64,000 nt of DNA from a virus (lineage: Duplodnaviria; Heunggongvirae; Uroviricota; Caudoviricetes). Location: positions 47,519 through 111,518 of IMG/VR virus record IMGVR_UViG_3300015177_000008. One strand, 5' to 3'. Positions 3,419-60,470 of the stretch are shown one piece after another. The position numbers and the translations under genes were made by a program. How positions within the stretch are numbered: position 1 is the stretch's first letter; every line of letters begins with the position of its first letter. The notes under the pieces were generated by a model. That model had not been told where the DNA came from. It saw only the letters and a list, made by a program, of their open reading frames with translations, and searched no databases.

Positions 3419-5105
3419 TCATTTAACGCGTTTGAAAACGTATACGCTGACTGTGATCCCTGTGTCTTCAAACTCGTTGGTAAACGACTTCCCTCTGGCA
3501 TAAACGTAATTATCCATCGTCATCCAGTCCAGTATTGGCGCAGTGCCCGGCAATACTGCTACAAGACGCCCGCCGACTTTCAGATGCCCCAGCGCAGCCA
3601 GCGTGTGCTCTCTATGACGACCAAGCGAGTACGGCGGGTTCATAACGATTTTGTCGAACTGATAACCTGCGTTGTCCTCAGACCACTTTATGAAGTCGCA
3701 GCAAATCGTGTTCGTATACCCTTTTCCACGCAGGATATCAGCAAAGAGAGGTGCGATTTCTATGCAGGTAACATCTTCCAGATCGGCGTTAATATAGGCC
3801 AGAAGATCCCCACGTCCGGCTTGAGGCTCCAACAGCTTCTCACCAGGCTTCAATTCAGTGGCTCTTGCAACGTACTCAGCAATCAAGCGTGGGGTAGGGT
3901 AGAACTGGTGTGATTTTGTATCCGGTATTAAACCGGTAGCCACAATCGTATTTAGCGTATGGCCGATGTCATACGGGAACTGCCAGTGCTTTTTCTCCTG
4001 CACGCCGCCAATGAAGCTCAGTGTGCGCTCAAGCTCTTCCACCTGCGACTTCTGGAGAGCTGAATCAGAGAAGTACCATACTCCTTTGTCTTTGCTCAAT
4101 CGCCCGTCACGAAGCGCAGTGCGAACCGGGACGGAGATCGTCTTCTGGATTAGCCCGAACTGCTTTGGTGCCCGTGTTTTTTGGCGCTCTGCGGCATGGC
4201 GCGGGGATTGCTGCAGGCATACTGTAAGCCAGCACCTCATTCAACTTCCAGGCCACGTCAGGATGTATTTCAAAGTGAACGTTGCCGTTCTTGAACATCT
4301 TCACGCGCATCAGATTTCCATCGACGTTCATCCAGTCACCGGTCTGGCAGTCGTTTGCCCGATACGCAGCTGATAGCACCTCAGCAGTGCGGTTGATGGT
4401 AATAAATTCTTTGTGCGCGAAGAAATGAAGCAAAACACGCAGATCGTCGATATAGTCCTCTTTGCGATAGTTCACACTAACGCTGTCCCGCCAGAAATCA
4501 GAAATGCAGTCAGCGATTATCAGACGCTCGCTGAAACCGTTCGTCTTATTTGTCTTGTGCGCAGGACTCAGCGCCTTAAACAAGCCATACACGCGCTCGG
4601 AGAGATATTTGTGCCTGTCATTCAGCAAATTAAGCATCGTTGGTATGACCGTTTCTGCTTTGAACTCCGGTACACCAACGAACTCTTTAACCTTCATCTG
4701 ATAGCCGGTTCTGTCAGTTTTGATGACTTCCTGCTTGCCCTCGATAAATTGCTCACGCCACTCGTCGCGACGGGAAGCTGGCATGATCAGCAAAACGTTA
4801 GTCATATCCGTGACCTTCCTCCAGTACTCGGCCCAAATATTCTGTTTCACCCATTCCAGATCGACTTTATCCAACCAACCTCGATTTAAACGCGAGCGAT
4901 CTTCATCTGGTCGATGGTTTAGTCTCAGCAGGCGATTAATCATGTTGTGGCGTTCGTCGCCATAAACGAAGTCGTGTACCTGATACATGAAGTCGATCTC
5001 TTTCTCGCACTCGGCCACGATTTCGTGGATGACATTCATTTCCTGACGATAGTCGATAGCCGTGTTTGAGCTGGCATCGTCGATGATGGAAAGGGCTGTA
5101 TTCAT
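3419..5105 (-). pseudogene. SAM-dependent methyltransferase-like gene (NPPY motif, DUF4942-like), disrupted by a frameshift
   Basis: Two overlapping minus-strand ORFs in different frames (4107..5105 and 3419..4240). The downstream frame carries EPQAGRGDLL and IVMNPPYS motifs; the tail of the first and head of the second look like out-of-frame sequence. Confidence 0.5.
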
Positions 5106-9958: not shown

Positions 9959-10488
9959 CTAATTACAGACGCCAGAACAAACTAAGCAGCCTTCTTTGAT
10001 GGTCTTTTTTTTTCTGACCACATTCGCAGGATCATACCCTCCCAGACTTTTCATGACGTCCAAAGGGATCTTGCTTATAGAGTGCCCAGCGTCCTGACAG
10101 AATCCTCGAAAAACAACGAGCATACTGCCACCGGGGTTGATGTTTACTTCTACCTGACCCAGATTGACGTCAGGCTCGACAAACGCTACGCGGCCACCAG
10201 ACAGAATAATCGTCTCATTCGCACACTCTGTTGCACGCTCATACCACTTTGTATCTAGGGATTGAGGAAGGCAATTGTACCTGGCTGTCCCCATTCAGAT
10301 TTCAAAGCATCACGCTCAACGCCTATGAAATTAGGCAGCTTTGCATTGTCCTTGTTGCAGGCAACGTCAACATCAAATGTCACTCCAAGATAACGTTGAA
10401 TGGCAGAAAACAGCCAGTCAGGTGTTCTCCAGAGGTCACGAAGAGAGTTGTCGCGCTTTCGCTGTTTGATTTTTTCGGCTGCAATCAT
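9959..10488 (-). pseudogene. Phage-type DNA N6-adenine methyltransferase (Dam family), disrupted
   Basis: Two ORFs in different frames: 10255..10488 ends ...GTIAFLNP-stop where NPPY/F is expected; 9959..10294 carries the downstream LPxxLDTKWY block. Apparent internal deletion plus frameshift. Confidence 0.5.
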
Positions 10489-22181: not shown

Positions 22182-24087
22182 AGCTGCGCCCCTCTTTAAC
22201 TTCCAGCGTAATAGTTTCCCGGAACCATGACTTCATCTCTTTATGGGAGATAATCAGCACAGTACCTCGCTCGCGAGCTTTGGACTCCAGAATACCCATG
22301 AGGCGTTCAAGACCGGCTGTATCGAGTGCATCGTCAATTTCGTCGCCGATAAACAAATCGATGTTTTTACTCGCCCGGTTACTAACCAGATCCTGCAATG
22401 CCAAAGAACACGCAATGCGAACCTTCCGCTTCTCACCACCAGAGAGGGTTTGGAACGACTTACTTGAACCTTTCTTCTGCACACTAATGTTGAATTTGTC
22501 GCGATACTCACCTTTTTTAGTGACATCCATCGTCGACCACTCAGCAGTAATGTTCCCGTCAGACAACGTATTGAGATATTCGGCTGTGCGTGTATTCAGG
22601 AAAGGCGTAACAGACGTCAAAATATGAGAACGCACCCCGGCAGGAGAGTAGACCTGACGAGCTTTTTCCAATAGCAACGTTTGTTCCTGAATAGCCTTCA
22701 ACTCATCTTTTAAGGACTTGAAGGTAGACTTACTGGATACCAGGTTATCTTCGTGTCTGGCGATAAGAGCAATAAACGGATTAATCTCTTTTGATATACG
22801 ATCGACCTCAGTGCGAGCACGAGTCACAAGAGACTCAATAGCAACAACCTCCTTCTCACGATGACGCAAAGATGAGAGTTGTTTCGTAAGCTCTTCAATC
22901 CGGGCAATGATAGCAGTTACATCAGGTGTCGTTTTAACAAGGGCAGACTCAATGCTTAACGCTTTCTCAAGATTCGTTTTGTGTTTAGCCATTGCCTCTG
23001 CAAGTGTCTTCGCCTGACCAATTTCCTGACGTGCTTGTTCAATGAAATTCTCCTTCACCGTTGATAGATCTTCTTCGCAGTAGGCTTTGCCACAAGTAGG
23101 GCATGGTGATCCCACTTTAGTACCAACCTCTTCTGCTTTGGTCTTAAAATTACGCGCGCGGTTCATTGCATCAGCCTGACTATTTTCTGTAGCTTTGATG
23201 CTTGCCCGAATATCAGTTATCGCACCACGAACTTTGAGCAACTTGGCGTCATGTTCTTCTTTTGAGGCTAACTTTTTGCGCTCCCTTTCGATTGCCTTCT
23301 CGGTATCACGTATCTGTTCGGGAAGAGTGCGGATCTCAAGTTCAACTTCCGTTAACTCAACTTCGGCACTGGCCAGCCCAGCCTGGGCATCGTCATAACG
23401 TTTAGAACGCTCTTGCTCCCATGATTCAGAGGAGGCTTTCGCTGACTCAATTTCTGACTGTGTTGCCTCAATGGTCGAGATTGTCGACTCCAATTTGGTT
23501 TTAACCACATCCATACGTGCGGCAGCTGCATTAGCTCGCTCACGAGCAATAGCGTAGGCGCGTGTCAGTCTGTCAACGCCAGCGGCTTCTTCTACGATGG
23601 TTTTGAGGTTTTTGTCGGACATTCCAGGTAAATCTGGCATAGCTTCTTGGCTCGCATAGATGGAAGCCATGAAAACCTCTTTAGATGCACCGATCAGACG
23701 CTCGACGAACTCCTGCGTCAGCGCATCTTTGCCTTTCGTCATATCGCCATCTTCACCACGAACGATAAGACGATTTTTGAACTCTTTGTGTTTACGGTGA
23801 CGAATGATTGCGTATCTCTTGCCTTCATCCTCGATGGTTACTGCAACACGACAGTTCTTTTCATGGTCGGTAGACAACACATCGTCACCCTTCACACCAT
23901 GAGCTGTTTCGCCATAAAGACACCACATCAGGCTATTCATTAGAGTTGACTTTCCAGAGCCATTACTTGATGCGGAACTATCATCACTATTAACACCCTG
24001 AATGAGCACTAAACCACGCTGATCTAACTCGACCTCCGCGCTGGCGATAGCCATAAAATTCTCAACCTGGAGCTTTAAAAACTTCAT
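22171..24087 (-). CDS. sbcC: SbcC/Rad50-like ATPase
   Basis: Walker A SNGSGKST, long coiled-coil with zinc-hook CPTCG, signature LSGGEKRK and Walker B LFIGDEID; GAGGTG before the ATG. Confidence 0.8.
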   Translation of the reverse strand: MKFLKLQVENFMAIASAEVELDQRGLVLIQGVNSDDSSASSNGSGKSTLMNSLMWCLYGETAHGVKGDDVLSTDHEKNCRVAVTIEDEGKRYAIIRHRKHKEFKNRLIVRGEDGDMTKGKDALTQEFVERLIGASKEVFMASIYASQEAMPDLPGMSDKNLKTIVEEAAGVDRLTRAYAIARERANAAAARMDVVKTKLESTISTIEATQSEIESAKASSESWEQERSKRYDDAQAGLASAEVELTEVELEIRTLPEQIRDTEKAIERERKKLASKEEHDAKLLKVRGAITDIRASIKATENSQADAMNRARNFKTKAEEVGTKVGSPCPTCGKAYCEEDLSTVKENFIEQARQEIGQAKTLAEAMAKHKTNLEKALSIESALVKTTPDVTAIIARIEELTKQLSSLRHREKEVVAIESLVTRARTEVDRISKEINPFIALIARHEDNLVSSKSTFKSLKDELKAIQEQTLLLEKARQVYSPAGVRSHILTSVTPFLNTRTAEYLNTLSDGNITAEWSTMDVTKKGEYRDKFNISVQKKGSSKSFQTLSGGEKRKVRIACSLALQDLVSNRASKNIDLFIGDEIDDALDTAGLERLMGILESKARERGTVLIISHKEMKSWFRETITLEVKEGRSYVV

Positions 24088-24316
24088 ATAACACCTCTGA
24101 TACCGTGTGTTAGCTTTTGGCCTTCTTTCAATCTGAACTCCGTATGCGCCGGGAAGGATCTGCGCCTCAATACGCCTTTTCTTGTTAACCTTCCAAGATA
24201 AAACGCTACGGGATTTCCTTGTGGGGGGTAGGGCTTGTGAAACATCACCGTCTGGCCTCGTTCAAGTCTTTTCATCGTGATGGCAAAGTCTCGAAAGCTC
24301 CCATAACGACTTTGCT

Positions 24317-25402
24317 TCACACAGCCTCCGAACTCTCCGCTTCGGTGAGGATTTCCTGACACAAAATATCCAATTTGCTCAGATCAAATCCGCCGTCAGT
24401 ATCGTGGACAATCTTGCAATAAGCAGATACCGACTCTCCCAGGCTATCGATTTTGCTGGTTTCAGTTGTGCTGGCTGTCCCTTCCATCATTGATGACTTA
24501 CGGATGAAGTTGCACACGACACCTTTTGCACCCATTGTTTTGAGGATGTTCTGGTACTTAATGCCTTCTTCATCGTTCTCAATTACGGCGCGGAAACGCA
24601 CGTAGTTGCCGCGAATTTGGTCATCAGCAACATCATCTTCCAGGTTAATGAATTTAGGCGCACTGGTTTCGTAGTGACTGAAACTGCCGTCCGGGTTTAC
24701 GATCATGTAGCCAGCCAGAGATCCAACATCTCCCCAATTTTGATGAGTCAGTGCACCGACACTGATAACTCCAGGAATGACCTCTTTGTGGTTGTGGTAA
24801 TGCCCACTAAGCACGAGACGAAAGCCGATATCCTTTAACTCCTGCGCATCGATACCGACGTCAGGCATTGTTGGAATGGCTTTGTTAATGGATGTATGGA
24901 TAACAACGTCATGGTTATCACCTTCTACGCTCTTACGTAATGCTTTCAGATCGCTGATAAGCTCCGCATGATTGTTACGCCAGCTAATCAGGTGGACAGT
25001 CACATCACCAATTTTTATTGAGTGTGGGCGCTTGCCACATACGATTACCACGCCGATAGAACTCAGCGATGCTGCTGCGTTGGCGCTATATACTGAATCG
25101 TTGGTTTCAAGATCGTGATTACCGGCCAGCATTACTACTGTCAGATCAAGCTCGTTGATAATCCACTTGTACGTTTCAGTTACGTAATGCAAAACAGAAG
25201 GGGACACAGTTCCTCGGACGTGAAATGTATCACCGGCAACCAACATGTACTTACAACCGGCCTTCTTCATGGCGATGGCTGCTTCTTTCGTTGCTTCCAA
25301 CTGTATTTCAAGTCTGGAGTTAAGCCCCTCAGCGTTCGTCGTGGAGAACGCATCCCATTTGTGGTAGTGGCAGTCAGAAATGACGCCGTATGGCAAAGTC
25401 AT
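24317..25402 (-). CDS. sbcD: SbcD/Mre11-like nuclease
   Basis: Calcineurin-like phosphoesterase motifs DCHYH, AGDTFH, GNHD. Confidence 0.8.
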   Translation of the reverse strand: MTLPYGVISDCHYHKWDAFSTTNAEGLNSRLEIQLEATKEAAIAMKKAGCKYMLVAGDTFHVRGTVSPSVLHYVTETYKWIINELDLTVVMLAGNHDLETNDSVYSANAAASLSSIGVVIVCGKRPHSIKIGDVTVHLISWRNNHAELISDLKALRKSVEGDNHDVVIHTSINKAIPTMPDVGIDAQELKDIGFRLVLSGHYHNHKEVIPGVISVGALTHQNWGDVGSLAGYMIVNPDGSFSHYETSAPKFINLEDDVADDQIRGNYVRFRAVIENDEEGIKYQNILKTMGAKGVVCNFIRKSSMMEGTASTTETSKIDSLGESVSAYCKIVHDTDGGFDLSKLDILCQEILTEAESSEAV

Positions 25403-25514
25403 GTATTTTTCCTTTGTGGTTATTTTGATACAAATTCTAAGAGCAATGAGGAGGTAAACAACTATGCATAACGGTATGTTAGGAATGAAACGAGTGCCTT
25501 AATATACAAAATTT

Positions 25515-25534
25515 ATAAGTAAGTATATACCTAT
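25515..25534. promoter_or_regulatory. Class-2 AT-rich palindrome
   Basis: ataagtaagtatatacctat upstream of sbcD. Confidence 0.35.
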
Positions 25535-25656
25535 TTATTTTGGCGTGAAGTTGCTTGTCTATATGGCTAAAAATAAGACAACGTCACTGTAGAACGAAAT
25601 GAGAGCGATTTTGAGGAGGCGTAGATTCTATCTACGCCAATATGCGATCTGGAGGG

Positions 25657-26301
25657 TTACAGCGCGTCAGTGGTCTTTTTACGCGCTGCGTTTATGCTTA
25701 TGACGCCAGCTTTTGGACGTGGGTCAACAAGGTTAAGTTCTTCTTCACTGTGGTATTCGAGGTCGAACTCACGTTTTACATGTCTGATGTAGATTGCGGT
25801 GAGCAGGCTATCTTTGGTCAGAAAGTGTCCGTAGGATTTGCGGATCACTTCTTCTACCTTCTCGATTTTCTCACCACCCATACAGAGATGATTAAACCGG
25901 CTGTGTTTCCGCAACATTTCGTCTACTGGGCCTGAGTAAACCTTGTCTACTTTCCCAAAACGGATGATTTTTCCTGTGTCTGCGGATACGAGGCAAATCA
26001 GCTTGTCTGGTGATAAACGATCTCGCCACGTCACACCTGAACGGAGTGTGTTGAAGTAGGGGGCATCCAATCCGATGATCGGTTTACGAAATGCGAGTAA
26101 TGGAACGTACCTGATGCAACTGTTTAAATGAAAATTCACACCAGCCTTATCAAGTTTAATTCTGGTTTCGTAGATCGGGCACTTCGCCGCTATACCGCAG
26201 ATGTCACAAAGCAACTTCTGCTTATTCAGGTTGGAATTTGATTCGATAGTGTAGGAGCCGTCTTCAAGACGACGAACCCAGCGCGTGCGTTTTAGATCCA
26301 T
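25657..26301 (-). CDS. Hypothetical protein
   Basis: 214 aa ORF. Confidence 0.45.
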   Translation of the reverse strand: MDLKRTRWVRRLEDGSYTIESNSNLNKQKLLCDICGIAAKCPIYETRIKLDKAGVNFHLNSCIRYVPLLAFRKPIIGLDAPYFNTLRSGVTWRDRLSPDKLICLVSADTGKIIRFGKVDKVYSGPVDEMLRKHSRFNHLCMGGEKIEKVEEVIRKSYGHFLTKDSLLTAIYIRHVKREFDLEYHSEEELNLVDPRPKAGVISINAARKKTTDAL

Positions 26302-26384
26302 ATGTCATTTTTCTGTGATTGTTAGCCGAGGCAACGATAACCCACCAGGTGCGCCGAAGGTAGTAAATGCCTGTTTTAATTATT

Positions 26385-26460
26385 CACATATCCACAGGAT
26401 AGATCCTAATAAAGAGATCCATAGATAGATCCTTGTATAGATCAAATAAGATCCCCGATC
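26385..26460. promoter_or_regulatory. Origin-like segment: DnaA-box-like site plus dense GATC cluster
   Basis: atatccaca (8/9 match to TTATCCACA) followed by six GATC sites within about 60 bp, immediately upstream of the iterons and repA. Confidence 0.45.
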
Positions 26461-26496
26461 GCTGTAAGCCGCGCCACGACTGGTCTGAAGCCATGT

Positions 26497-26605
26497 TCAT
26501 GTATGCTGTCAGCGGTAATTGATAGTCTGTCAGCGGTTCACCGTATGCTGCCAACTGTTTTTGGTATTCTGTCAGCGGCAAATCAAGTATGCTGTCAGCG
26601 GTTGA
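26497..26605. repeat. Iterons, upstream set (about 5 copies of TATGCTGTCAGCGGT and variants)
   Basis: Direct repeats tatgctgtcagcggt, gtctgtcagcggt, tattctgtcagcggc with irregular spacing. Confidence 0.7.
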
Positions 26606-26622
26606 ATGACAAAGGTGTCCAC

Positions 26623-27717
26623 ATGTCCACAAAAAATAAAAAAGGTAAAAATAACAAAGAAGTAGAAGATAATCTCGACAACTTTGAAGAAGGTTCCCTT
26701 GAATTGTACACAGGGGAACTTGTCCCTAATAGCAACAATACAGTCCAACCAATTGCGTTGATGCGGCTGGGATTGTTCGTGCCCACGCTCAAGGGGACAA
26801 AATACAGCAAGCGTAACAAGCCAAATGAGATCGATGCTTCAAAGGAGCTTGTTCAGCTCGAAGTAGCCCGTTCTGAAGGCTATTCCGATATCAAGATAAC
26901 CGGTCCTCGTCTCGACATGGATCATGATTTCAAAACGTGGGTGGGCGTTGTGCGTTCGCTGGCAGAATACGGCGAACCTAACGGTCGTGTCGAGTTAAGC
27001 ATCACGAAATTTGCGAAGTTTTGTGGCTATCCATCGTCACAGATCCGCAAAACACTCCGCGACCGGCTTACAAACAGTCTTTTGAAGATCATGCGTACAA
27101 CTCTGTCTTTCCAGAGAACATATGAAGAAAAGAACGTCGACGGCTCTAACAAGATCTCGCTTCTGATGGTGCACCTCATCAATAGCGTGGACTACAACGA
27201 GCAGAAAGATACGGTGGTGTTCTATGCAGAACCGAAGCTGGCCGAACTATATCGCTTTGACCATAAGGTTCTTTTGCAGTTAAAGGTTATCAATAAGCTA
27301 CCACGCAAAGAAACAGCACAGGCTCTGTACACCTTCATCGAAAGTCTTCCAACCAAGCCTGCGCCGGTGTCGCTTGCTCGATTGCGTGCGCGACTCAATT
27401 TGAGTAGCAGGAATGTCAGCTCGCAGAATCAGACTATACGCAACGGCTTAAAAGCTCTCCAAGATTTGGGCTATCTCGAATACAGCGAGATTAAGCGAGG
27501 GCGGTCGATCTATATCCAGATTCACAGCCGTAATCCAAAACTTAAAGTCGCACCGCCAAAACCTGAAGACATCGAACCCAAAAAAACAGATGAGAAAGCC
27601 GGGGAAATTGATGCTAAACAGAACATTATCAACAAGATAACTGAGCTTTCGCAGAATTTGACGCCTGAAAATATCAAGATGATTGAGATCCTTTCCAATA
27701 GTCTCAAACTGCTTTGA
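26623..27717 (+). CDS. repA: Iteron-type plasmid replication initiator (RepFIB-like)
   Basis: ATG at 26623 after AAGGTG; motifs TVQPIALMRLGLFVPTLK, ITGPRLDMDHDFKTWVG, LYTFIESLP, SLARLRARLNL match RepFIB-type RepA as I recall it; flanked by iterons. Track ORF starts upstream inside the iterons. Confidence 0.8.
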   Translation: MSTKNKKGKNNKEVEDNLDNFEEGSLELYTGELVPNSNNTVQPIALMRLGLFVPTLKGTKYSKRNKPNEIDASKELVQLEVARSEGYSDIKITGPRLDMDHDFKTWVGVVRSLAEYGEPNGRVELSITKFAKFCGYPSSQIRKTLRDRLTNSLLKIMRTTLSFQRTYEEKNVDGSNKISLLMVHLINSVDYNEQKDTVVFYAEPKLAELYRFDHKVLLQLKVINKLPRKETAQALYTFIESLPTKPAPVSLARLRARLNLSSRNVSSQNQTIRNGLKALQDLGYLEYSEIKRGRSIYIQIHSRNPKLKVAPPKPEDIEPKKTDEKAGEIDAKQNIINKITELSQNLTPENIKMIEILSNSLKLL

Positions 27718-27718
27718 T

Positions 27719-28250
27719 ATGCTGTCAGCGGTGAAATGTATGCTATCAGCGGCTATTTTTCTGAAAAGTATGCTGTGAACGGTTAAAGATATGCTACCAG
27801 CGGTATAGTGAGATGAACGTATGCTGTGAGCGGTAAATCATCTATCACCACTCAATGCTCTGTCATACCTCCCCAGTGGTTACTAACCTCGAAGAGTGCA
27901 TTCCATATAGGTTTGCGCTCACTAACATTCTATTGCTATTGCGCTGATTGCTTGTAGTGAAAGGCATTTATTGCCTGCTGCTCCCTGATAGAACGTATGC
28001 TGTCAGCGGTGTTTTATTGAGGAATTTTTGTTTGGATATGCTATCAGCGGTAATTAATGGTATATGTCAGACCTTCGTATGCTGCCAGCGGTAATTTTGT
28101 TCTGGTTATACCCATACCGGTACACATTATTCATGCAATGTCTTAAGTATGCTGTCAGCGGTAAAAAATCGAGTAAAGTATGCTGTGAGCGGTGAGATAG
28201 ACTCTCGATATGCTATCAGCGGTAGTTGATTGTGTATGCTGTCAGCGGTG
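27719..28250. repeat. Iterons, downstream set (at least 11 copies)
   Basis: tatgctgtcagcggt and variants (tatgctatcagcgg, tatgctgtgagcggt, tatgctgccagcggt) spaced about 20-35 bp apart, with a 160-bp gap. Confidence 0.75.
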
Positions 28251-28296
28251 ACGACTATGAAATATGACTGCGGAACGTGCCGCAGTCAGTTTGCAT

Positions 28297-28509
28297 TTAG
28301 TGTATTTTCTTTAACAGACCCCAAAGTGTTCCGGCTTTTGTAGTCAGTTTTCCTGTTTCTGGATCGTACATACGCCATTCACGCCGCTGGTGGACGATAT
28401 ACCCATCTTCACGTTCCAGACGCTCAAGAATGCCAGGTTGCTTGAAACCCTTAGCACGCCAGTAGCCGCTTGTTTTCTCGATTTCCAGACCTGCCAGTGT
28501 TAATGCCAT
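28297..28509 (-). CDS. Hypothetical protein (70 aa)
   Basis: ORF; start overlaps the upstream stop. Confidence 0.4.
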   Translation of the reverse strand: MALTLAGLEIEKTSGYWRAKGFKQPGILERLEREDGYIVHQRREWRMYDPETGKLTTKAGTLWGLLKKIH

Positions 28510-28844
28510 TATTCAACCTCCTTGCAGTCATCGAAAAGGTAGCTTTGCTGAGAAGCGTGAACGCCATAGAAGCCCTTGTATTTGTTGTATACGAAGTGGT
28601 CTTCTCCGACGCCGGTTAATTTGCCATTACGGTTTGTGAGATATGGGGATGACAACACTCGATCGTCACGCACAACATAGAACTGGTCGCCGCTGTCTAC
28701 GACCATCGCTCCATATGGTGCTTTTATGACGTCGGTAAGAGCGCCATTCTTAACGTCGGCTACAGACATTTCACACTGATAAACAGTGGTGTCGGCCACA
28801 ACGATCGAAGAAAGGAACAACAGCGCGAATGGGATGGCCTTCAT
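28509..28844 (-). CDS. Hypothetical secreted protein
   Basis: N-terminal signal-peptide-like MKAIPFALLFLSSIVVA. Confidence 0.45.
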   Translation of the reverse strand: MKAIPFALLFLSSIVVADTTVYQCEMSVADVKNGALTDVIKAPYGAMVVDSGDQFYVVRDDRVLSSPYLTNRNGKLTGVGEDHFVYNKYKGFYGVHASQQSYLFDDCKEVE

Positions 28845-29020
28845 GCTGCCACCTCTTTGATTACATCAAATGCTGAATTAAATACGAGCACGATAGCCAA
28901 AGCGTTTATGACTACGTCGTTCACCGGGGAAAAGACTTTACGAATGACACCGGTGAAAATGCAGTCGATGACAAAAGCTATTGAAACGATGAGTAACAAG
29001 TATTCAATAAAAATCTTCAT
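28841..29020 (-). CDS. Small membrane protein (59 aa)
   Basis: ATGA overlap with the downstream gene; two hydrophobic segments; below track cut-off. Confidence 0.3.
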   Translation of the reverse strand: MKIFIEYLLLIVSIAFVIDCIFTGVIRKVFSPVNDVVINALAIVLVFNSAFDVIKEVAA

Positions 29021-29059
29021 GATAGGTAGATACTAACTTATATAAATTTTACTGTAAAC

Positions 29060-29335
29060 TCACTCAAAAGTGCTGATGCTTAAAATACGCTCAAGATGTG
29101 CGGCATCTTCATCACTGATTTGTTGAGTCTCTTCTACGTACCAACAGTTGCCGTTATGCCAACAAACACCATCATCATCAACCATCACTGAATCAGCGTC
29201 ATGACCTGTATATTCAACGAGAATACGCTGGATCAGCGCGTCAGTTTCTTCGTCGTTAAGGCCATCGGCTTTGACCATAAAAACCGGAAACACGTCATAG
29301 ACAGTGCTGGTAACGATTCGAACTAAAACTCTCAT
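29060..29335 (-). CDS. Hypothetical protein
   Basis: 91 aa; start context GGAAAAACACATG. Confidence 0.4.
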   Translation of the reverse strand: MRVLVRIVTSTVYDVFPVFMVKADGLNDEETDALIQRILVEYTGHDADSVMVDDDGVCWHNGNCWYVEETQQISDEDAAHLERILSISTFE

Positions 29336-29390
29336 GTGTTTTTCCTTTTGTGGTTAGTGTTTACTTATTTTGTTAGTTATGAATAGGCGA

Positions 29391-29816
29391 TCAATCTTCT
29401 TGTTTAGGGAAAAACTGTTCAATAACTCTGTCAACGGCTGTGTCTATATGGAGTAGATGCCACACAACCATATCTTTGCTTCCCATGCCTTGTGTGAATA
29501 TCACGTCATACTTACGCCATGCGCAGTGGAACCAATATGCTGAGTCATCAATTGGTAAATCCTCTCCCGCCTCTTTGAAGTATTTCAGCAGCATTGCCTG
29601 CTCTGCCGTTGGCGTTGGGCCTATTTCCTGAGCGTACATACGGATGAATCGCTGCCAGTCTGTCTCGTCGGGAGTTGGATCTGGTGGATTCATTTCGGCG
29701 ATAGCTTTTCGCAGCTGATGCGCCCAATCAGGTTCAGGAAAGCCTTTTGCTACTTCATCATCAATAACATCCAGAGCCACGTTTGCGGCATCGTAGAGTT
29801 TCTTAATAGCTGTCAT
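29391..29816 (-). CDS. Hypothetical protein
   Basis: 141 aa; class-1 palindrome and a terminator upstream. Confidence 0.45.
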   Translation of the reverse strand: MTAIKKLYDAANVALDVIDDEVAKGFPEPDWAHQLRKAIAEMNPPDPTPDETDWQRFIRMYAQEIGPTPTAEQAMLLKYFKEAGEDLPIDDSAYWFHCAWRKYDVIFTQGMGSKDMVVWHLLHIDTAVDRVIEQFFPKQED

Positions 29817-29832
29817 GTTTTCTTAACCCTTT

Positions 29833-29846
29833 AAACAAGTTGTTTT
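29833..29846. promoter_or_regulatory. Class-1 palindrome (putative operator)
   Basis: aaacaagttgtttt between the terminator and the 29391..29816 start. Confidence 0.45.
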
Positions 29847-29864
29847 CTTAATAGGATAATTGCG

Positions 29865-29890
29865 ATAAAAAAGGCGTCCAACTGGACGCC
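29865..29890 (-). terminator. Rho-independent terminator
   Basis: Minus-strand GGCGTCCAGTTGGACGCC followed by TTTTTTAT, downstream of the SPFH gene. Confidence 0.6.
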
Positions 29891-29907
29891 TGAACTTTTA
29901 AGGGGAG

Positions 29908-30738
29908 TTATTTCACTGTAATGAAAGGAGTGTTAGCCCCTTGAGTCATGTACTGCGGTAACTGGCCATTCCATTTATTGATGGCTTCCAGCTCCATAAC
30001 GTTCGGGTTTTGACGCAGAGCTTCACCGCGCAGACGAATGGCGTCTGCTTCTGCTTGCGCACGAGCACGGATAGCATCAGCTTCACCATTAGCCTGTTCA
30101 CGCAGCATATTCGCCTCAGCTTTACGTTGTTCAACTTCCTGCTGACGTTGCAGAGTACGCTGGTTAGCCGTTACTTTGGCGTTAATAGATTCAATGACGG
30201 TTTTTGGGTAATCAGGCTTTCCAACCCATGACAAGCTCAGTACCTCAATACCAACCGGAGACATCTCTTTCTGAATATCTTTCAGTGCGTTGTCCAGCAA
30301 TTGTGCCTTACCACCGTCGATAAATGAGTCAGTGGTCATACGGCTGGCCAAACGGTTTAGAGAGTCGGCAATTTTCTGACGCAGATCTGATTCGGTGATA
30401 TCGTCTACGCCTTTGCGATAGGTCTGGAACACCGTCGTTACCTTGTCACGATTAACCAGATACGCAACGCCAATTTTGTGACCAATAGCAGTACCGTCAC
30501 TCATCTGGAATGTGAACGGCTCGTCGTAGGTCTTCATTTGTTTGAAGGTCGGGAATACGTAAAGTTCGGTGTTAAGACCTGTCCATTGGCGACCAACGCC
30601 AACCACTTCACCAATCCCTTTGTCTTCACCTAATTTGTTTACTTTGATGCCAACGTATCCAGACTCCACGCGATCGCAGCCAGTAAGACCCATTGTGCAA
30701 ATAGCCGCCAGAGCAACTGCAAGTAAACCTTTCTTCAT
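29908..30738 (-). CDS. SPFH/band-7 (stomatin-prohibitin-like) lipoprotein
   Basis: Lipobox LTGC after a signal peptide; SPFH-like core and Ala/Glu/Arg-rich coiled-coil C-terminus. Confidence 0.6.
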   Translation of the reverse strand: MKKGLLAVALAAICTMGLTGCDRVESGYVGIKVNKLGEDKGIGEVVGVGRQWTGLNTELYVFPTFKQMKTYDEPFTFQMSDGTAIGHKIGVAYLVNRDKVTTVFQTYRKGVDDITESDLRQKIADSLNRLASRMTTDSFIDGGKAQLLDNALKDIQKEMSPVGIEVLSLSWVGKPDYPKTVIESINAKVTANQRTLQRQQEVEQRKAEANMLREQANGEADAIRARAQAEADAIRLRGEALRQNPNVMELEAINKWNGQLPQYMTQGANTPFITVK

Positions 30739-30741
30739 TAC

Positions 30742-30942
30742 TTATTTCCCCTTTGCTTTGATTAATGAGTTGATAAACTTACGACCAGCAATAAGACCGA
30801 TTACAGGAGCACCAAAACCAACGATAACTCCAAACATGACGGCTAAATCACTCTTGGTAGAAATCAGCGACGGAACCAGTAATCCGTAGATGAGAGCCAC
30901 TGAAAGGCCTGTGGCTACTGCCAATAGATAGATTTTGATCAT
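30742..30942 (-). CDS. Small two-TM membrane protein
   Basis: 66 aa hydrophobic ORF immediately upstream of the SPFH gene in the same operon. Confidence 0.4.
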   Translation of the reverse strand: MIKIYLLAVATGLSVALIYGLLVPSLISTKSDLAVMFGVIVGFGAPVIGLIAGRKFINSLIKAKGK

Positions 30943-30973
30943 GTGTTTTCCTATGTGGTTGTTATGTGAAAAT

Positions 30974-30990
30974 GATAAGTAAGTACTTAT
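30974..30990. promoter_or_regulatory. Class-2 AT-rich palindrome
   Basis: gataagtaagtacttat upstream of the 30742..30942 start. Confidence 0.35.
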
Positions 30991-31034
30991 ATATTTTCAA
31001 GAAATAAAAAAGGCGTCCTGTGGACGCCTTGTGT

Positions 31035-33374
31035 TTACTCTTCTACTGACTCGGTGGGATTGTCTTTTGATCTCCGGTCGTCGATTGCCTGTAAAGCCGC
31101 AATGATTTCAGCTAGTGGCTTCTCCCGATACATCTCGACGATCTGTGATTTGGTGTATTTCTTGTCACCAATTTCTACTCGACCGCTGGCGTTCTTTGGC
31201 AGGTATCCTTCTTCCAGCATGTACTCGACGAGCGACTCGATAACGTCGAGGCCACGAGTAGGATCGAAGTAGAATTTCCAGGTGCATTTGCCATACGGTG
31301 GTGCAACTTTGTTTTTGATGCACTCTGCGCCTACGTCCTGACCGATCTTCTCTTTCCCATCCTTCATCACCGATGCACCGAGACGGATGCGCACAGAAGC
31401 GTAAAACTTCGGTGAATCGCCGCCTGGAGACGTAGTAGGGTCGCCAAACATTACACCGATTTTTGTGCGAACCTGATTCAAGAAGATGATGCAGGCGTTG
31501 TATTTGCGTGCCCACAAAGCCAGAGTGGGGAAGTTCGCACTCGTCGCACGAGCCAGCGCCGTATTGTCGTTCATGTTTAGCTGATCTTTGTCTTTGGCAG
31601 TGCCTTCAGCCATCTTTTCGAACTTCTCGGCTTTGGAGTTCGGAACCATAGACGCAAGTGAGTCAGCCACGATACAGATAGGTGCTGATTCAGGAATAAG
31701 CTCTTCATCACGTACCAATTTAAGAATTGTGCCGATCAACTCTACAGAGTCTTCGAAGGTATCAGGCTGCTTGTATACCCACTGACCGTCATCCTCATCT
31801 GCATTCAAACCATTGGCTACAGCCAGGCCAACGTCAAAACTGTTTTCATGATCGAGGAATACCGCCAGACCATCTTGTTTTTGAGCGGAGATCATCGCTG
31901 CTGTTGCAAGGAATGTGTTGTGGCTGATAATCCCGTTAGACCAGAAAGAGTGTGTTTCCGGCATCGCTACGTCGAACGTTGGTGCTTCACCTTCCTCAAT
32001 AGCCACGACTTCGTCGTAGAACAAGTTAGAGCCAATTACCGCTGCCAGTTGTGCAAACAGATGCTCGTTAAAACGATTCTTTCTGCCAATGAAGGAGACA
32101 TAGATTTCTCGCAGTTTGTCTATTCCGACACGATCGCCGCGGCCAATAACGTGGTCTACCAGAGCGTAGTCTTCACGGGTGGTCTTGGTGAGCGACTCGT
32201 AGAGTGATTTCACTAAGCCGCTGATGTGCGGAACATAGCCTGAGTAAGTGCGGTCAAAACCAATGTCCCGTTTGGTTGCCACTGATAAACGTGCCGGAGA
32301 TTCGAAACCAATCGTTGACAGAAAAAGGTCGTAATTAGAGCCACTGAATGACAGCCGGTAATATGTATTTTCATAACCCGCGACGTGTTTTTCAGAGATA
32401 GTTGACGTAATCCCCAGATTCAGGAGCATGAGGCGAATTTGCTGTAGCAGCAGCCCACTCGCGCTCACAACCTCAATGCAGCGACCATCATTGACGTGGC
32501 ATTCCAGCTCAAAGTAGCCGCGAAGGAATGCAATTTGAGCCTCGCTATTGGCGCGACGCACACTCAACGGAACCTGCTTGCCAGCAGCTTTCTCATACTC
32601 CAGACCATATTCTTTAAAAAGCAGCGAACGCACCTCTTTGCTAAACAGCACATGGTCTTCCGAGCCGTTATGTTTTCTCGTAACTGGCATCTTGTCTGAT
32701 ACCAGCGAAATGAGGCGGTAGTACTCATCCTTGATGAAAGGATCTGTGTTAGAAAAATTCACTGAATTTTCAGAGGCCACGTATCCGTCAGCAATTAAAT
32801 AGCCCATCAGTTTTGCGATATTGGCATCCAGGTGCTGATCGCCGAATTGATGTGTGCCAACCATTGAAGGAATCGTGTCGCCTACACTGATTTTTTCAGC
32901 ATGTCGCCAGACGACATTACCTAAGTCGTCAACCACACGGATTGGGTGACGGAACGTAGCCTCGATATAACCGCCTGATGCCAGCTTAATACGCTTGAAT
33001 TTGCGACGGTTGTTCCATGTCAGGTGTGAGGTCTTCTCTATCACGCCATTTTCATTGATGAGTCCAACGTTATGCTCTACATCGCGAGTAGTGCATGTCG
33101 CTTTGTACCCTTCAATCTCAAACAACTCTTTCACTGTTACCATTCCACGCTCCGTCAGCAGCATGGTGTCTGCGGTAACACATTTCCCCGCACTTGGAGG
33201 ACCGAATACTTCGACGATACGACCACATGGGAAGCCGCCATCGTAACGACCAGAAATAGCTTTGTTTAACGGTGGAAAGCCTGTATCAATCCAATGAGTT
33301 ACTTTCTGAATTTCGTCGTTGCTACCGATTTTCTTTTTCAGAGCAAGTGCCAGTGCGGATTTTCCTTTTGCCAT
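31035..33374 (-). CDS. recA: RecA-family recombinase interrupted by an intein
   Basis: Exteins GRIVEVFGPPSAGK...TFLATAAM and FLNQVRTKIGVMFGDPTTSPGGDSPKFYASVRIRLGA resemble RecA; a 422-aa insertion splits the Walker A motif. Confidence 0.8.
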   Translation of the reverse strand: MAKGKSALALALKKKIGSNDEIQKVTHWIDTGFPPLNKAISGRYDGGFPCGRIVEVFGPPSAGKCVTADTMLLTERGMVTVKELFEIEGYKATCTTRDVEHNVGLINENGVIEKTSHLTWNNRRKFKRIKLASGGYIEATFRHPIRVVDDLGNVVWRHAEKISVGDTIPSMVGTHQFGDQHLDANIAKLMGYLIADGYVASENSVNFSNTDPFIKDEYYRLISLVSDKMPVTRKHNGSEDHVLFSKEVRSLLFKEYGLEYEKAAGKQVPLSVRRANSEAQIAFLRGYFELECHVNDGRCIEVVSASGLLLQQIRLMLLNLGITSTISEKHVAGYENTYYRLSFSGSNYDLFLSTIGFESPARLSVATKRDIGFDRTYSGYVPHISGLVKSLYESLTKTTREDYALVDHVIGRGDRVGIDKLREIYVSFIGRKNRFNEHLFAQLAAVIGSNLFYDEVVAIEEGEAPTFDVAMPETHSFWSNGIISHNTFLATAAMISAQKQDGLAVFLDHENSFDVGLAVANGLNADEDDGQWVYKQPDTFEDSVELIGTILKLVRDEELIPESAPICIVADSLASMVPNSKAEKFEKMAEGTAKDKDQLNMNDNTALARATSANFPTLALWARKYNACIIFLNQVRTKIGVMFGDPTTSPGGDSPKFYASVRIRLGASVMKDGKEKIGQDVGAECIKNKVAPPYGKCTWKFYFDPTRGLDVIESLVEYMLEEGYLPKNASGRVEIGDKKYTKSQIVEMYREKPLAEIIAALQAIDDRRSKDNPTESVEE
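31917..33182 (-). mobile_element. Intein with LAGLIDADG homing-endonuclease domain inside recA
   Basis: Starts with Cys directly after GPPSAGK, ends ...SHN followed by Thr; LAGLIDADG-type blocks LMGYLIADGYV and LRGYFELECHV. Confidence 0.7.
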
Positions 33375-58811: not shown

Positions 58812-58849
58812 ATGCATTGGCGCAATATACGCGCCAATGCATGATTTTT
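58812..58849. terminator. Bidirectional rho-independent terminator
   Basis: atgcattggcgc aatata gcgccaatgcat then gaTTTTTaa, between convergent genes. Confidence 0.6.
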
Positions 58850-59207
58850 AACCTTTCTTCATCAACTCTCGTTTGATTTCATCGGTACGCATCGTGACAT
58901 CGGCAGCGGTGATCGCCTCATTCAATTTCACGATGTCCTCGATTTCCTGCGGTGACTTCTCTGCCAGATGGAAAATGGCTGCTCGAATCACGTCAGAACG
59001 AGTGAACTTCTCGAAGCGAGGGATGAACTTCATCATCTCCAGCAGTTCGAAGTATTCGTCCTCCAGTGACATTGTGCGGCTTTTAATTTTCTCTTTGCCA
59101 CGAGTCGGGCGTCCCTGTGGTCTGACTGGTTGGCGCAAAGGAGTTGTGTTCTTAGCCGGTGCATCAGGCTCTTTGCGCTTTGCTAGGTCACCCATTTTCA
59201 TGGACAT
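58848..59207 (-). CDS. Small partition protein, ParG-like (putative)
   Basis: 119 aa basic protein immediately downstream of parA; RHH assignment not checked against sequence. Confidence 0.45.
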   Translation of the reverse strand: MSMKMGDLAKRKEPDAPAKNTTPLRQPVRPQGRPTRGKEKIKSRTMSLEDEYFELLEMMKFIPRFEKFTRSDVIRAAIFHLAEKSPQEIEDIVKLNEAITAADVTMRTDEIKRELMKKG

Positions 59208-59875
59208 TATTCTTCTTCCTCCAGACTCAACAGATAATCTACAAATTCTTCAAACTCGGCTTCCGCCTTTTTGTCGCGCTCGCTACCGGTCATTTCAAAG
59301 ATAGAACGACCAGACTCTTCCGCATCATCATAGACGTTGCGGTTATATAGATTGACTGGCGCAGACTCGATTCCAAACGTCTCAACAATCTCTTTAGCCG
59401 CCAGAATGCGAGACACTTGTGATGGCAAAGCCGGGCACTGGTTCATGACCGCGCGGACCTTCACTTTATCGTTTACATTGCGAACATTGTCGATAATAGG
59501 ATCGATGTCACGTAAAGATTTCAAATCACGACGCTTAGGACGCAGCGGGATAATGATAACGTCAGCCATCAGCATCGCTTGTCGCTGAATTTCGGAGTCG
59601 AAGCCACCAGCATCTACCACTACAAACTCAGCTCTACCCTGAAGCGATTTTAGGTGCTTAATGATGTCATCCTGAACGTATGCAAAAGGAATCAGCTCAA
59701 GGTCTTCGTTCTGTCGACGGTCTTCACACCAGCTCGTTGTCGTGCGCTGAATATCTATATCGGTAATATAAACCTTCTTCTTCTTATTGACTTTCAGGCA
59801 AACGGCAATTTGCTGGGCAACGGTGGATTTGCCAGGCCCGCCCTTTGTGCCGCCAACCACAAAGATCTTGGTCAT
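59207..59875 (-). CDS. parA: ParA-family partition ATPase (small, type Ib-like)
   Basis: Deviant Walker A GGTKGGPGKST; class-1 palindrome in its upstream region. Confidence 0.8.
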   Translation of the reverse strand: MTKIFVVGGTKGGPGKSTVAQQIAVCLKVNKKKKVYITDIDIQRTTTSWCEDRRQNEDLELIPFAYVQDDIIKHLKSLQGRAEFVVVDAGGFDSEIQRQAMLMADVIIIPLRPKRRDLKSLRDIDPIIDNVRNVNDKVKVRAVMNQCPALPSQVSRILAAKEIVETFGIESAPVNLYNRNVYDDAEESGRSIFEMTGSERDKKAEAEFEEFVDYLLSLEEEE

Positions 59876-60073: not shown

Positions 60074-60193
60074 ACAATTTGATAATGCACACGTAATGGG
60101 CTATAGCCTTTTAAAGTAATTTTTGAGTCGAAAACTCAGTTTGAACAGAGGAGATTGATGGCCTTCCTACATCACGGCCATCAGGAGGAATAC

Positions 60194-60463
60194 ATGTCAG
60201 CACTAAAAAAGCAGCGCATCGATTTGAGATTAACCGATGACGATAAAAGCATCATCGAGGAAGCTGCCGCAATGTCTAACCAGAGCATTACTCAGTTTAT
60301 GGTTAGCAGTGCATCTGAACGTGCCGTGAAAGTTATAGAGCAACACCGTAGACTAGTTCTGAATGAAGAATCCTGGAATCTGGTTATGGACGCTATAAGC
60401 AATCCTCCGGCACCGAACGATAAGCTGAAACGAGCTGCTAATCGTCTGAAAAGCATGGAGTAG
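60194..60463 (+). CDS. DUF1778-type antitoxin (TacA-like)
   Basis: ATG at 60194 after AGGAGG; 89 aa MSALKKQRIDLRLTDDDKSIIEEAA...; directly upstream of a GNAT gene. Track ORF starts upstream. Confidence 0.65.
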   Translation: MSALKKQRIDLRLTDDDKSIIEEAAAMSNQSITQFMVSSASERAVKVIEQHRRLVLNEESWNLVMDAISNPPAPNDKLKRAANRLKSME

Positions 60464-60470
60464 TTTACTC

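What the first reader, a model, noticed from the sequence alone, without database searches (positions are those of the whole stretch)
26385..28250. Complete iteron replicon: DnaA-box-like site, six GATC sites in 60 bp, repA flanked by at least 16 iterons
Classic iteron-plasmid origin architecture next to phage-type replication genes. The GATC cluster suggests Dam methylation and SeqA-type sequestration control, which is notable because the element's own Dam-like methyltransferase gene at 9959..10488 is decayed.
Basis: partly seen in the sequence, partly recalled or inferred. Interest (0 to 1): 0.5.

Follow-up and report, generated by a model that had tools for sequence, protein, structure and literature searches.

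The report
P1-type plasmid replicon in a phage-plasmid
This stretch is the plasmid-maintenance replication origin of an SSU5-like E. coli phage-plasmid, built part for part like the textbook origin of phage P1, so it is real and well formed but ordinary.

Summary
The region carries two abutting DnaA-box-like 9-mers (26380-26396) and six GATC sites in 59 bp (26402-26460). Five iterons at 21-23 bp spacing (26501-26602) precede repA (26623-27717). Twelve more iterons follow, starting at the repA stop codon (27717-28249). That makes 17 iterons, all in one orientation, with none elsewhere in the 64 kb.

RepA is 46% identical to P1 RepA and has the two-winged-helix initiator fold. The DnaA-box/GATC/GC-spacer core aligns to P1 oriR at 77% nucleotide identity. 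The layout matches the curated P1 map (DnaA boxes, Dam sites, incC iterons, repA, incA iterons).

The element is a ~108 kb SSU5/pECOH89-type phage-plasmid. This replicon occurs in 120 of 5,426 complete E. coli genomes, always on plasmids.

The Dam/SeqA reading is reasonable by homology with P1. The emphasis on the decayed dam gene is overdrawn: it is an 88-bp deletion seen in only two of 177 related plasmids, and host Dam is available anyway.

Three points go beyond the finding:
- The iteron-repA-iteron block is a swappable specificity cassette inside a conserved backbone that includes the origin core.
- The number of control iterons varies between relatives (12 or 9).
- An unexplained, conserved pair of palindromic boxes (27871-27930) sits among the control iterons.

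Verdict: new member of a known kind, low to moderate interest.

The parts
26380..26396 (+). Two abutting DnaA-box-like 9-mers (TTATTCACA, ATATCCACA), at the outer edge of the origin
   Evidence: one mismatch each. The position is homologous to the annotated DnaA site of P1 oriR. Boxes lie 14 and 22/23 nt before the first GATC in 27 of the 39 distinct relatives examined, the H89-, Salmonella- and Klebsiella-type replicons; the SSU5/Cyrano-type regions keep a single box.
26398..26460 (.). AT-rich origin core with six GATC (Dam) sites at 26402, 26416, 26428, 26440, 26450 and 26457. Five lie in AGATCC/AGATCA heptamer-like contexts. This is the presumed unwinding and methylation/SeqA target.
   Evidence: unique cluster; 0 of 2000 simulations reach six. 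(67% A+T over 26372-26460 against 55% for the window). (corresponds to the P1 Dam sites). (spacing conserved in 37 of 39 relatives).
26461..26498 (.). GC-rich spacer (gctgtaagccgcgccacgactggtctgaag...) between the GATC core and the iterons, conserved with P1
   Evidence: window 26369-26483 aligns to P1 oriR at 77% identity, E 8e-16.
26501..26602 (+). Five origin iterons (incC-equivalent), core (G/A)TATGCTGTCAGCGGT, start-to-start 21, 21, 21, 23 bp. The repA promoter is presumed to lie among them.
   Evidence: The number and spacing match P1 incC and are invariant in relatives.
26623..27717 (+). repA, iteron-binding initiator, 364 aa from the ATG at 26623 (Shine-Dalgarno AAGGTG at 26612-26617). 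Automatic annotation starts it at 26503, inside iteron 1.
   Evidence: Rep3_N. (46% identity to P1 RepA, E 3e-86). (the model matches the RctB, RepE, TrfA and pi initiators).
27717..27834 (+). Control iterons, cluster 1 (five copies; the first begins at the last base of the repA stop codon, as in P1 incA)
27871..27930 (.). Conserved bipartite element of unknown function. Box B is CCCCAGTGGTTACTAACCTC and box A is GCGCTCACTAACATT. Box A is a perfect 16-18 bp palindrome in relatives.
   Evidence: conserved in the SSU5, Cyrano and Klebsiella types. (70 of 80 loci with an exact box-B match carry a RepA homologue nearby). (unique in the 108-kb plasmid).
27995..28249 (+). Control iterons, cluster 2 (seven copies, spacing 41, 41, 70, 31, 30, 26)
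   Evidence: Three of these are missing in phage PhiR41_1.
28265..28288 (.). GC-rich hairpin (terminator-like on both strands) that closes the replicon. The right-hand end of the swapped cassette is at about 28280.

Best explanation
This is the plasmid-prophage maintenance replicon of an SSU5/pECOH89-type phage-plasmid, and it is a homologue of the P1 oriR-incC-repA-incA replicon (RepFIB family).

The mechanism below is inferred by homology and not shown here:
- RepA monomers bind the five phased origin iterons.
- Host DnaA binds the tandem boxes at the far edge.
- Together they open the AT-rich GATC core, so that host DnaB and Pol III start theta replication.
- The repA promoter lies in the iteron array, so RepA represses its own synthesis.
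- The twelve downstream iterons act like P1 incA. They titrate RepA and pair with ('handcuff') the origin iterons, which holds copy number low.
- The six GATC sites make initiation depend on Dam methylation. Once hemimethylated after firing, they are bound by SeqA, which blocks immediate re-initiation.

The iteron sequence, and therefore the incompatibility specificity, differs from P1.
For: Protein. RepA is 43.5-46% identical to P1/P7 RepA over nearly the whole P1 protein. It has the Pfam Rep3_N WH1 domain. Its predicted fold matches the iteron initiators RctB, RepE, TrfA and pi.

Layout. The window is collinear with the curated P1 record: DnaA site, five Dam sites, five incC iterons with PrepA inside, repA, and incA iterons starting at the stop codon. 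The origin core aligns with P1 oriR at 77% nucleotide identity.

Specificity. Iteron sequences track RepA clades. Klebsiella relatives with 85-88% RepA identity have the same core. The SSU5, P1 and RCS47 types have different iterons.

Constraint. Six GATC with fixed spacing are kept in 37 of 39 distinct relatives whose RepA ranges from 45 to 99.7% identity, and 27 of the 39 also keep the tandem DnaA boxes.

Use as a plasmid. The replicon is found in 143 PLSDB plasmids, with MOB-suite replicon rep_cluster_488 given for the records examined. It is in 120 of 5,426 complete E. coli genomes and never on a chromosome. The related phage-plasmid Cyrano was measured at 5.5 copies per cell.

P1 and methylation. 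This rests on the titles of Abeles & Austin 1987 and Abeles et al. 1993, listed, and on my own knowledge of Brendler et al. 1995 on SeqA binding to the P1 origin core.
Against: - No experiment on this replicon was found. Every mechanistic step is by homology.
- The consensus scan found no sigma-70 promoter among the upstream iterons. The best manual candidate, TTGGTA-18-AAGTAT, is weak.
- Both DnaA boxes deviate from consensus and overlap by one base.
- All 12 control iterons are direct repeats, whereas P1 incA has 3 direct and 6 inverted, so handcuffing geometry may differ.
- A conserved non-iteron element sits among the control iterons and has no P1 counterpart.
- The element encodes its own DnaE, primase and helicase, so reliance on the host replisome is assumed rather than shown.
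Confidence: 0.82

Rival explanations
1. The locus is, or doubles as, the origin for lytic (phage-mode) replication. It would be served by the element's own DnaB-like helicase, primase and DnaE rather than by the host machinery in plasmid mode.
For: A full phage replisome is encoded on both sides of the locus. No other origin was identified in the window.
Against: In P1 the homologous replicon is the plasmid-maintenance origin and lytic replication uses a separate replicon (own knowledge). Iteron titration and handcuffing architecture limits copy number, which is the opposite of what lytic amplification needs. The DnaA boxes point to host-dependent initiation.
Confidence: 0.1
2. The GATC cluster matters mainly as a methylation-dependent unwinding element, or as part of the promoter region of the divergent ASCH-like gene (25657-26301, - strand). 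SeqA sequestration would then have little role in copy control.
For: The cluster is the most AT-rich part of the origin. It lies about 100 bp upstream of the divergent gene's start codon. For P1, two levels of methylation control were reported (title), so a requirement for methylation and sequestration are separable.
Against: GATC spacing of 7-14 bp with fixed phasing across clades suits cooperative SeqA binding (own knowledge of SeqA site requirements). In P1 the cluster is annotated as part of oriR.
Confidence: 0.2
3. The downstream repeats are a partition centromere or another cis site and do not act as RepA-binding copy-control iterons.
For: Arrays of direct repeats can be centromeres. No par genes or parS site were identified beside the replicon, and the ParA-like gene is 31 kb away.
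Against: The downstream repeats have the same sequence as the origin iterons, and they change together with RepA between clades. The array begins at the repA stop codon exactly as P1 incA does.
Confidence: 0.04

Closest known systems
Bacteriophage P1/P7 plasmid replicon (oriR, incC, repA, incA; IncY)
   Same: RepA is homologous (46% identity). It has two DnaA boxes, a phased GATC cluster and a GC-rich spacer, all alignable at 77% nucleotide identity. Five origin iterons sit at 21-bp spacing, and a second iteron array starts at the repA stop codon. It lives in a phage that lysogenises as a low-copy plasmid.
   Different: - The iteron sequence differs (TATGCTGTCAGCGGT against GATGTGTGCTGGAGGGAAA), so the incompatibility specificity is different.
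- It has 12 control iterons, all direct and in two clusters, against 9 in P1 (3 direct, 6 inverted).
- It has six GATC against five.
- RepA has 12 extra N-terminal residues and a tail of about 55 residues with two predicted helices.
- No parABS lies next to the array.
- An extra conserved palindromic element sits inside the array.
SSU5 / pLF82 (phage Cyrano) / pHCM2-type replicon of the same phage-plasmid family
   Same: The backbone and flanking genes are the same (96-97% identity to Cyrano up to the iterons). The origin core has the same six GATC, and the conserved bipartite element lies among the downstream iterons.
   Different: RepA is only 48% identical and the iterons are unrelated (AACCACTGTAGAGAG type). 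SSU5/Cyrano have a second, degenerate origin core plus an extra iteron set upstream of repA, and both direct and inverted downstream iterons. The bipartite element is inverted relative to repA.
Klebsiella IncpKPHS1 phage-plasmid replicon (PMC6735626)
   Same: RepA is 85-88% identical, the iteron core is identical, and it has the same 5 upstream iterons, the same six GATC and tandem DnaA boxes.
   Different: It has nine downstream iterons, and the bipartite element lies after the last iteron instead of between clusters. The published description lists only four downstream iterons and no recognised RepA domain.
RepFIB replicons of F-type and P1-like plasmids (e.g. phage RCS47), and more distantly F RepE, R6K pi, RK2 TrfA and Vibrio RctB
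   Same: RepFIB RepA is 41% identical and has the same DnaA-box/GATC/iteron-repA-iteron plan. RepE, pi, TrfA and RctB share the winged-helix initiator fold.
   Different: The iterons are different. For RepE, pi, TrfA and RctB there is no sequence-level similarity and the origin layouts differ.

Membership tests
P1-type (RepFIB-family) iteron replicon | Initiator homologous to P1 RepA | tested here: met
   tblastn gives 43.5% identity, E 2e-64. BLASTP gives 46% over aa 32-309 against 20-284 of 286, E 3e-86.
P1-type (RepFIB-family) iteron replicon | Two-winged-helix (WH1-WH2) Rep fold | tested here: met
   Pfam Rep3_N WH1 at 4e-9, above the cut-off. The AlphaFold model (pLDDT 73) matches RctB domains 2-3 (1e-7), RepE (5e-5), a WH1 Rep domain, TrfA and pi. 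TM-scores are modest (0.4-0.5).
P1-type (RepFIB-family) iteron replicon | Five direct iterons at about 21-bp spacing just upstream of repA | tested here: met
   Iterons at 26502, 26523, 26544, 26565 and 26588. P1 has spacing 21, 21, 21, 22.
P1-type (RepFIB-family) iteron replicon | Tandem DnaA boxes at the outer edge of the origin, followed by a cluster of GATC heptamers | tested here: met
   It aligns to P1 oriR at 77% identity. The GATC cluster is conserved in 37 of 39 relatives and the tandem boxes in 27 of them. Protein binding was not tested.
P1-type (RepFIB-family) iteron replicon | Second (incA-like) iteron array beginning at the repA stop codon | tested here: met
   The first downstream iteron starts at 27717, the last base of the TGA, as in P1. 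Orientation and number differ from P1.
P1-type (RepFIB-family) iteron replicon | Autonomous replication dependent on RepA, DnaA and Dam; SeqA binding to the hemimethylated core; copy-number rise on deleting the control array | not testable with these tools
   The only indirect support is that the replicon occurs exclusively on circular plasmids and that a relative has low copy number.
IncY (P1/P7) incompatibility group | P1-type iteron sequence recognised by P1 RepA | tested here: not met
   The iteron core is unrelated to the P1 19-mer. This is therefore a P1-like replicon of another specificity and not a member of IncY.
IncY (P1/P7) incompatibility group | P1-type parA-parB-parS operon adjoining incA | tested here: not met
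   The genes after the array are small and sit on the opposite strand. The only ParA-like gene in the window is a 222-aa ATPase at 59207-59875.
MOB-suite rep_cluster_488 / PlasmidFinder IncFIB(H89-PhagePlasmid) type | Near-identical repA to the reference plasmids of that type | tested here: inconclusive
   Records 99.3-99.8% identical to the window are typed rep_cluster_488 by PLSDB. The link to pECOH89 is indirect: its RepA is reported as 48% identical to that of pLF82, the same figure found here against Cyrano. pECOH89 itself was not aligned.

The most novel reading that the evidence does not exclude
The conserved pair of palindromic boxes (27871-27930) may be a binding site for a backbone-encoded or host protein other than RepA. 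It is embedded among the copy-control iterons, kept across replicon types whose RepA and iterons have diverged beyond recognition, works in either orientation, and is unique in the 108-kb plasmid. Such a site could couple plasmid-mode copy control to partition, multimer resolution or the prophage switch. The P1 paradigm has no such component.
Probability: 0.2. Interest if true: 0.5.

Novelty: new member of a known kind. Interest (0 to 1): 0.25.

Why it matters
SSU5/pECOH89-type phage-plasmids are common in E. coli (about 2% of complete genomes here), Klebsiella and Salmonella, and some carry CTX-M genes.

Knowing that their maintenance replicon is a P1-type iteron origin has three practical consequences:
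- It gives an immediate, testable model for their copy-number control, incompatibility and Dam dependence.
- It corrects the automatic start codon of RepA.
- It explains why near-identical backbones fall into different replicon types, because the specificity cassette is exchangeable.

Variation in the number of control iterons is a plausible route to copy-number change, and hence to change in resistance-gene dosage. None of this alters what is known about how iteron replicons work.

Tried and rejected
- **PDB by sequence.** phmmer of RepA against PDB sequences found nothing relevant. The fold search was needed.
- **RNA families.** An Rfam scan of 26200-28400 at E up to 1 found no RNA family, so there is no sign of antisense-RNA control.
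- **Promoter.** The sigma-70 consensus scan found no promoter in the origin iterons.
- **Gap as a relic origin.** I tested whether the 160-bp gap between the downstream iteron clusters is a relic second origin core, as in SSU5. The local alignment score was 22 against a shuffled mean of 16.7 and maximum of 26, which is not significant.
- **Inverted or stray iterons.** None were found.
- **Known sites for the bipartite element.** By eye it does not match the recalled consensus sites for Tus/Ter (one-base insertion in the core), XerCD dif/cer, LexA, CRP, IHF or DnaA. No further copy exists in the plasmid that would suggest a multi-operator repressor.
- **Papers not reachable.** The classic P1 papers and a 2026 preprint on phage-plasmid heteroresistance that mentions repA 41 times could not be opened.
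- **Failed scripts.** One script timed out and one failed on file names.
Full report
**1. What is in the sequence**

Reading 25800-28800 and listing ORFs shows a 364/404-aa ORF (26623 or 26503 to 27717, + strand) flanked by copies of one repeat.

- **Iterons.** The core TATGCTGTCAGCGGT with up to three mismatches occurs 20 times in the 64 kb against 1.5 expected, and 17 of these fall in 26502-28249. A weight matrix built from them finds exactly these 17 (at least 18.5 bits), all on the + strand. Nothing above 13.6 bits occurs elsewhere on either strand. Five lie upstream of the gene with start-to-start spacing 21, 21, 21, 23 bp. Twelve lie downstream in two clusters, 5 at 27718-27834 and 7 at 27996-28249. 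The first downstream copy begins at the last base of the stop codon.
- **GATC cluster.** Upstream of the origin iterons there are six GATC sites in 59 bp (26402-26457). The window holds 267 GATC sites in all, but this is the only 60-bp span with four or more, and none of 2000 first-order Markov simulations reached six.
- **DnaA boxes.** Immediately before the cluster are two abutting DnaA-box-like 9-mers with one mismatch each. Such boxes are not individually significant (25 found, 15.7 expected).

**2. What the element is**

The 2-kb region matches 143 PLSDB plasmids at 95-99% identity. Most are non-mobilizable E. coli plasmids of 100-114 kb, typed rep_cluster_488 in the records examined. It also matches three phage records, PhiR41_1 and two records of CMS-2020a.

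The window is 99.8% identical to E. coli plasmid p108_MLI108-3 (NZ_CP117002.1), whose record starts at the repA ATG, window position 26623.

The neighbours are phage-type DNA-metabolism genes: SbcCD-like, NrdAB, ThyA, DHFR, RNase H, a RecA-like gene, a 5'-3' exonuclease, DnaE, primase, a DnaB-like helicase and ligase. The rest of the plasmid encodes tail, capsid, portal and terminase genes. This is the SSU5/pHCM2/pECOH89 family of phage-plasmids.

In RefSeq complete E. coli genomes the replicon occurs in 120 of 5,426 genomes, always on plasmids and never on a chromosome.

**3. Homology with P1**

- **Protein.** RepA matches Pfam Rep3_N (WH1) at 4e-9. tblastn against phage records gives 85-88% identity to Klebsiella SSU5-like phage-plasmids, 48% to SSU5 and Cyrano (pLF82), 43.5% to P1/P7 RepA (E 2e-64) and 41% to RepFIB-type RepA of P1-like phages. 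Pairwise BLASTP to P1 RepA gives 46% identity over residues 32-309 against 20-284 of 286 (E 3e-86).
- **Fold.** An AlphaFold model from a 50-sequence alignment (pLDDT 73) has an ordered core from about residue 42 to 310. The N-terminus is disordered and lysine-rich. A two-helix C-terminal tail (329-363) has no counterpart in P1. Foldseek against the PDB returns iteron initiators first: RctB domains 2-3, RepE, a WH1 Rep domain, TrfA and pi.
- **Layout.** The curated P1 record (AF234172) annotates, in order, a DnaA site of two boxes, five Dam sites, five incC iterons with PrepA inside them, repA, and nine incA iterons beginning at the stop codon. The window is collinear with this, part for part.
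- **Origin DNA.** The origin core itself is alignable. Window 26369-26483 matches P1 oriR at 77% identity (E 8e-16), including the GC-rich spacer gccgcgccacg.

**4. Differences from P1**

- The iteron sequence is unrelated to the P1 19-mer, so this is not an IncY replicon.
- All 12 control iterons are direct. P1 has three direct and six inverted, and SSU5 also mixes orientations.
- There are six GATC where P1 has five. P1 has GGTC at the position of the second site.
- No parABS follows the array. A 222-aa ParA-like ATPase with a 119-aa partner lies 31 kb away at 58848-59875, next to a TacA/GNAT toxin-antitoxin pair.

**5. Conservation**

I examined 39 distinct upstream regions taken from IMG/VR loci whose RepA ranges from 45 to 99.7% identity to this one. 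Thirty-seven have six GATC with spacing 13/14-12-12-10-7. DnaA boxes lie 14 and 22/23 nt before the first GATC in the 27 H89-, Salmonella- and Klebsiella-type regions; the SSU5/Cyrano-type regions keep a single box. That is strong purifying constraint on the host-factor part of the origin.

Iteron sequences follow RepA clades. The Klebsiella type has the same core; the SSU5, P1 and RCS47 types have different ones. This supports RepA as the iteron-binding protein.

**6. Mechanism**

The mechanism is inferred by homology. RepA monomers on the five phased iterons, together with DnaA on the tandem boxes, open the AT-rich GATC core (67% A+T). The host replisome is then loaded. RepA represses its own promoter in the iteron array. 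The downstream array titrates RepA and handcuffs the origin, as described for P1 and iteron plasmids generally.

For P1, a methylation requirement and two levels of methylation control are on record (titles). SeqA binding to the P1 origin core is from my own knowledge (Brendler et al. 1995). A related phage-plasmid, Cyrano, has 5.5 copies per cell, which fits iteron control.

Two weak points remain. No consensus promoter was found among the iterons. The use of the host replisome instead of the element's own is assumed.

**7. The dam remark**

The gene at 9959-10488 (- strand) is indeed broken. Two PF05869 fragments result from an 88-bp deletion between 11-bp direct repeats (TTCCTCAATCC) that removes the NPPY motif and shifts the frame. 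There is also a 1-bp insertion in an A-run.

Of 177 related plasmids only one other shares the shortened form. The sampled relatives have the longer 738-bp form, with a 197-aa gene annotated as a phage N-6-adenine-methyltransferase and read as intact in the one I translated. Because E. coli Dam methylates GATC anyway, this strain-specific lesion says little about origin control.

**8. Things beyond the finding**

(a) **Cassette exchange.** Against Cyrano/pLF82 the window is 95.9% identical over 23608-26489 and 97.1% over 28280-31000. The block between them (iterons, repA, iterons) is diverged, at 65% nucleotide identity in part of repA and with unrelated iterons. The DnaA/GATC core therefore belongs to the conserved backbone, and the RepA-iteron specificity cassette has been exchanged with breakpoints at the edges of the iteron arrays. 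The 48% RepA difference between pECOH89 and pLF82 was noted in 2014.

(b) **Variable control iterons.** The number of control iterons varies. It is 12 here and in p788309_2, and 9 in phage PhiR41_1 and in a Klebsiella relative. The five origin iterons never vary.

(c) **An unexplained conserved element.** The 160-bp gap between the two control clusters holds a conserved bipartite element at 27871-27930.
- On the - strand it reads AATGTTAGTGAGCGCAAACC, about 27 nt of spacer, then GAGGTTAGTAACCACTGGGG.
- Box A is a perfect palindrome in Cyrano (TGTTAGTGATCACTAACA) and in Klebsiella relatives.
- An exact-pattern scan of IMG/VR gave 87 stretches. Of the 80 examined, 70 carry a RepA homologue in the fetched DNA and have both boxes. 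These span RepA clades from 43% to 99.7% identity, and the element is inverted relative to repA between types.
- It is unique in the whole 108-kb plasmid and absent from P1.
- By eye it does not resemble the recalled consensus sites for Tus, XerCD, LexA, CRP, IHF or DnaA. I regard it as a probable protein-binding site of unknown partner.

(d) **RepA start codon.** Automatic annotation starts RepA at 26503, inside iteron 1 (404 aa). The ATG at 26623 with a Shine-Dalgarno sequence (AAGGTG) is more likely. It agrees with the P1 layout and with the start chosen in PhiR41_1.

**9. Comparison with the literature**

In the open-access library, papers on SSU5-type phage-plasmids that mention repA do not mention iterons. 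The one description of a closely related replicon (IncpKPHS1) lists four iterons downstream of repA and no recognised RepA domain. The full P1-like anatomy of this replicon type seems not to have been spelled out. It is nevertheless an ordinary homologue of a textbook system.

**10. Verdict**

This is a new member of a known kind, with interest about 0.25. The only piece that could lead somewhere new is the conserved bipartite element.

Noticed in passing
window 27871-27930: A conserved pair of palindromic boxes (GTTAGTG..CACTAAC type) lies among the control iterons. It is kept across replicon types whose RepA and iterons differ, is inverted between types, and is unique in the 108-kb plasmid. 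Its binding partner is unknown.
   Followed up: partly
window 26490-28279 against L011 (phage Cyrano/pLF82): The iteron-repA-iteron block is a swapped specificity cassette. The flanks are 96-97% identical to Cyrano right up to the iteron arrays, while the cassette itself has diverged (RepA 48% identical, unrelated iterons). The DnaA/GATC origin core stays with the backbone.
   Followed up: yes
window 27996-28249; L002 (PhiR41_1) 3907-4059; L005 (Klebsiella p4727) 2597-2849: The number of downstream control iterons is polymorphic (12, 9 and 9), while the five origin iterons are invariant. This could be a source of copy-number variation.
   Followed up: partly
window 9959-10488 (- strand): The phage-type Dam methyltransferase gene (PF05869) is inactivated by an 88-bp deletion between 11-bp direct repeats (TTCCTCAATCC) that removes the NPPY motif, plus a 1-bp insertion in an A-run. 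Only one of 176 other related plasmids shares the shortened form.
   Followed up: yes
L004 (SSU5) 1780-2375; L011 (Cyrano): SSU5/Cyrano-type replicons have two origin-like cores upstream of repA, each followed by its own iteron set. One has six GATC; the second is degenerate. The window has a single core.
   Followed up: partly
window 26503-26622: Automatic annotation (PGAP, 404 aa) starts RepA at an ATG inside iteron 1. The ATG at 26623 with Shine-Dalgarno AAGGTG gives 364 aa and fits the P1 layout. TGTCCACA occurs twice in tandem across this start (26615-26630) and may be weak right-hand DnaA boxes.
   Followed up: partly
window 58848-59875 (- strand) and 60155-60992 (+ strand): A ParA-like 222-aa ATPase with a 119-aa partner that has no Pfam match is the probable partition system. 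A TacA antitoxin/GNAT toxin pair lies next to it. Both are 31 kb from the replicon instead of adjoining it as in P1.
   Followed up: partly
window 25657-26301 (- strand): A conserved 214-aa protein is divergently transcribed from the origin. It has no Pfam hit here and is annotated as an ASCH RNA-binding domain protein in Cyrano. Its start codon is about 80 bp from the DnaA boxes, so its promoter must overlap the origin edge.
   Followed up: no
window about 31035-33374 (- strand): A 780-aa gene is annotated as a LAGLIDADG homing endonuclease in one record and as RecA-like in PhiR41_1 and Cyrano. It may be a recA interrupted by an intein.
   Followed up: no
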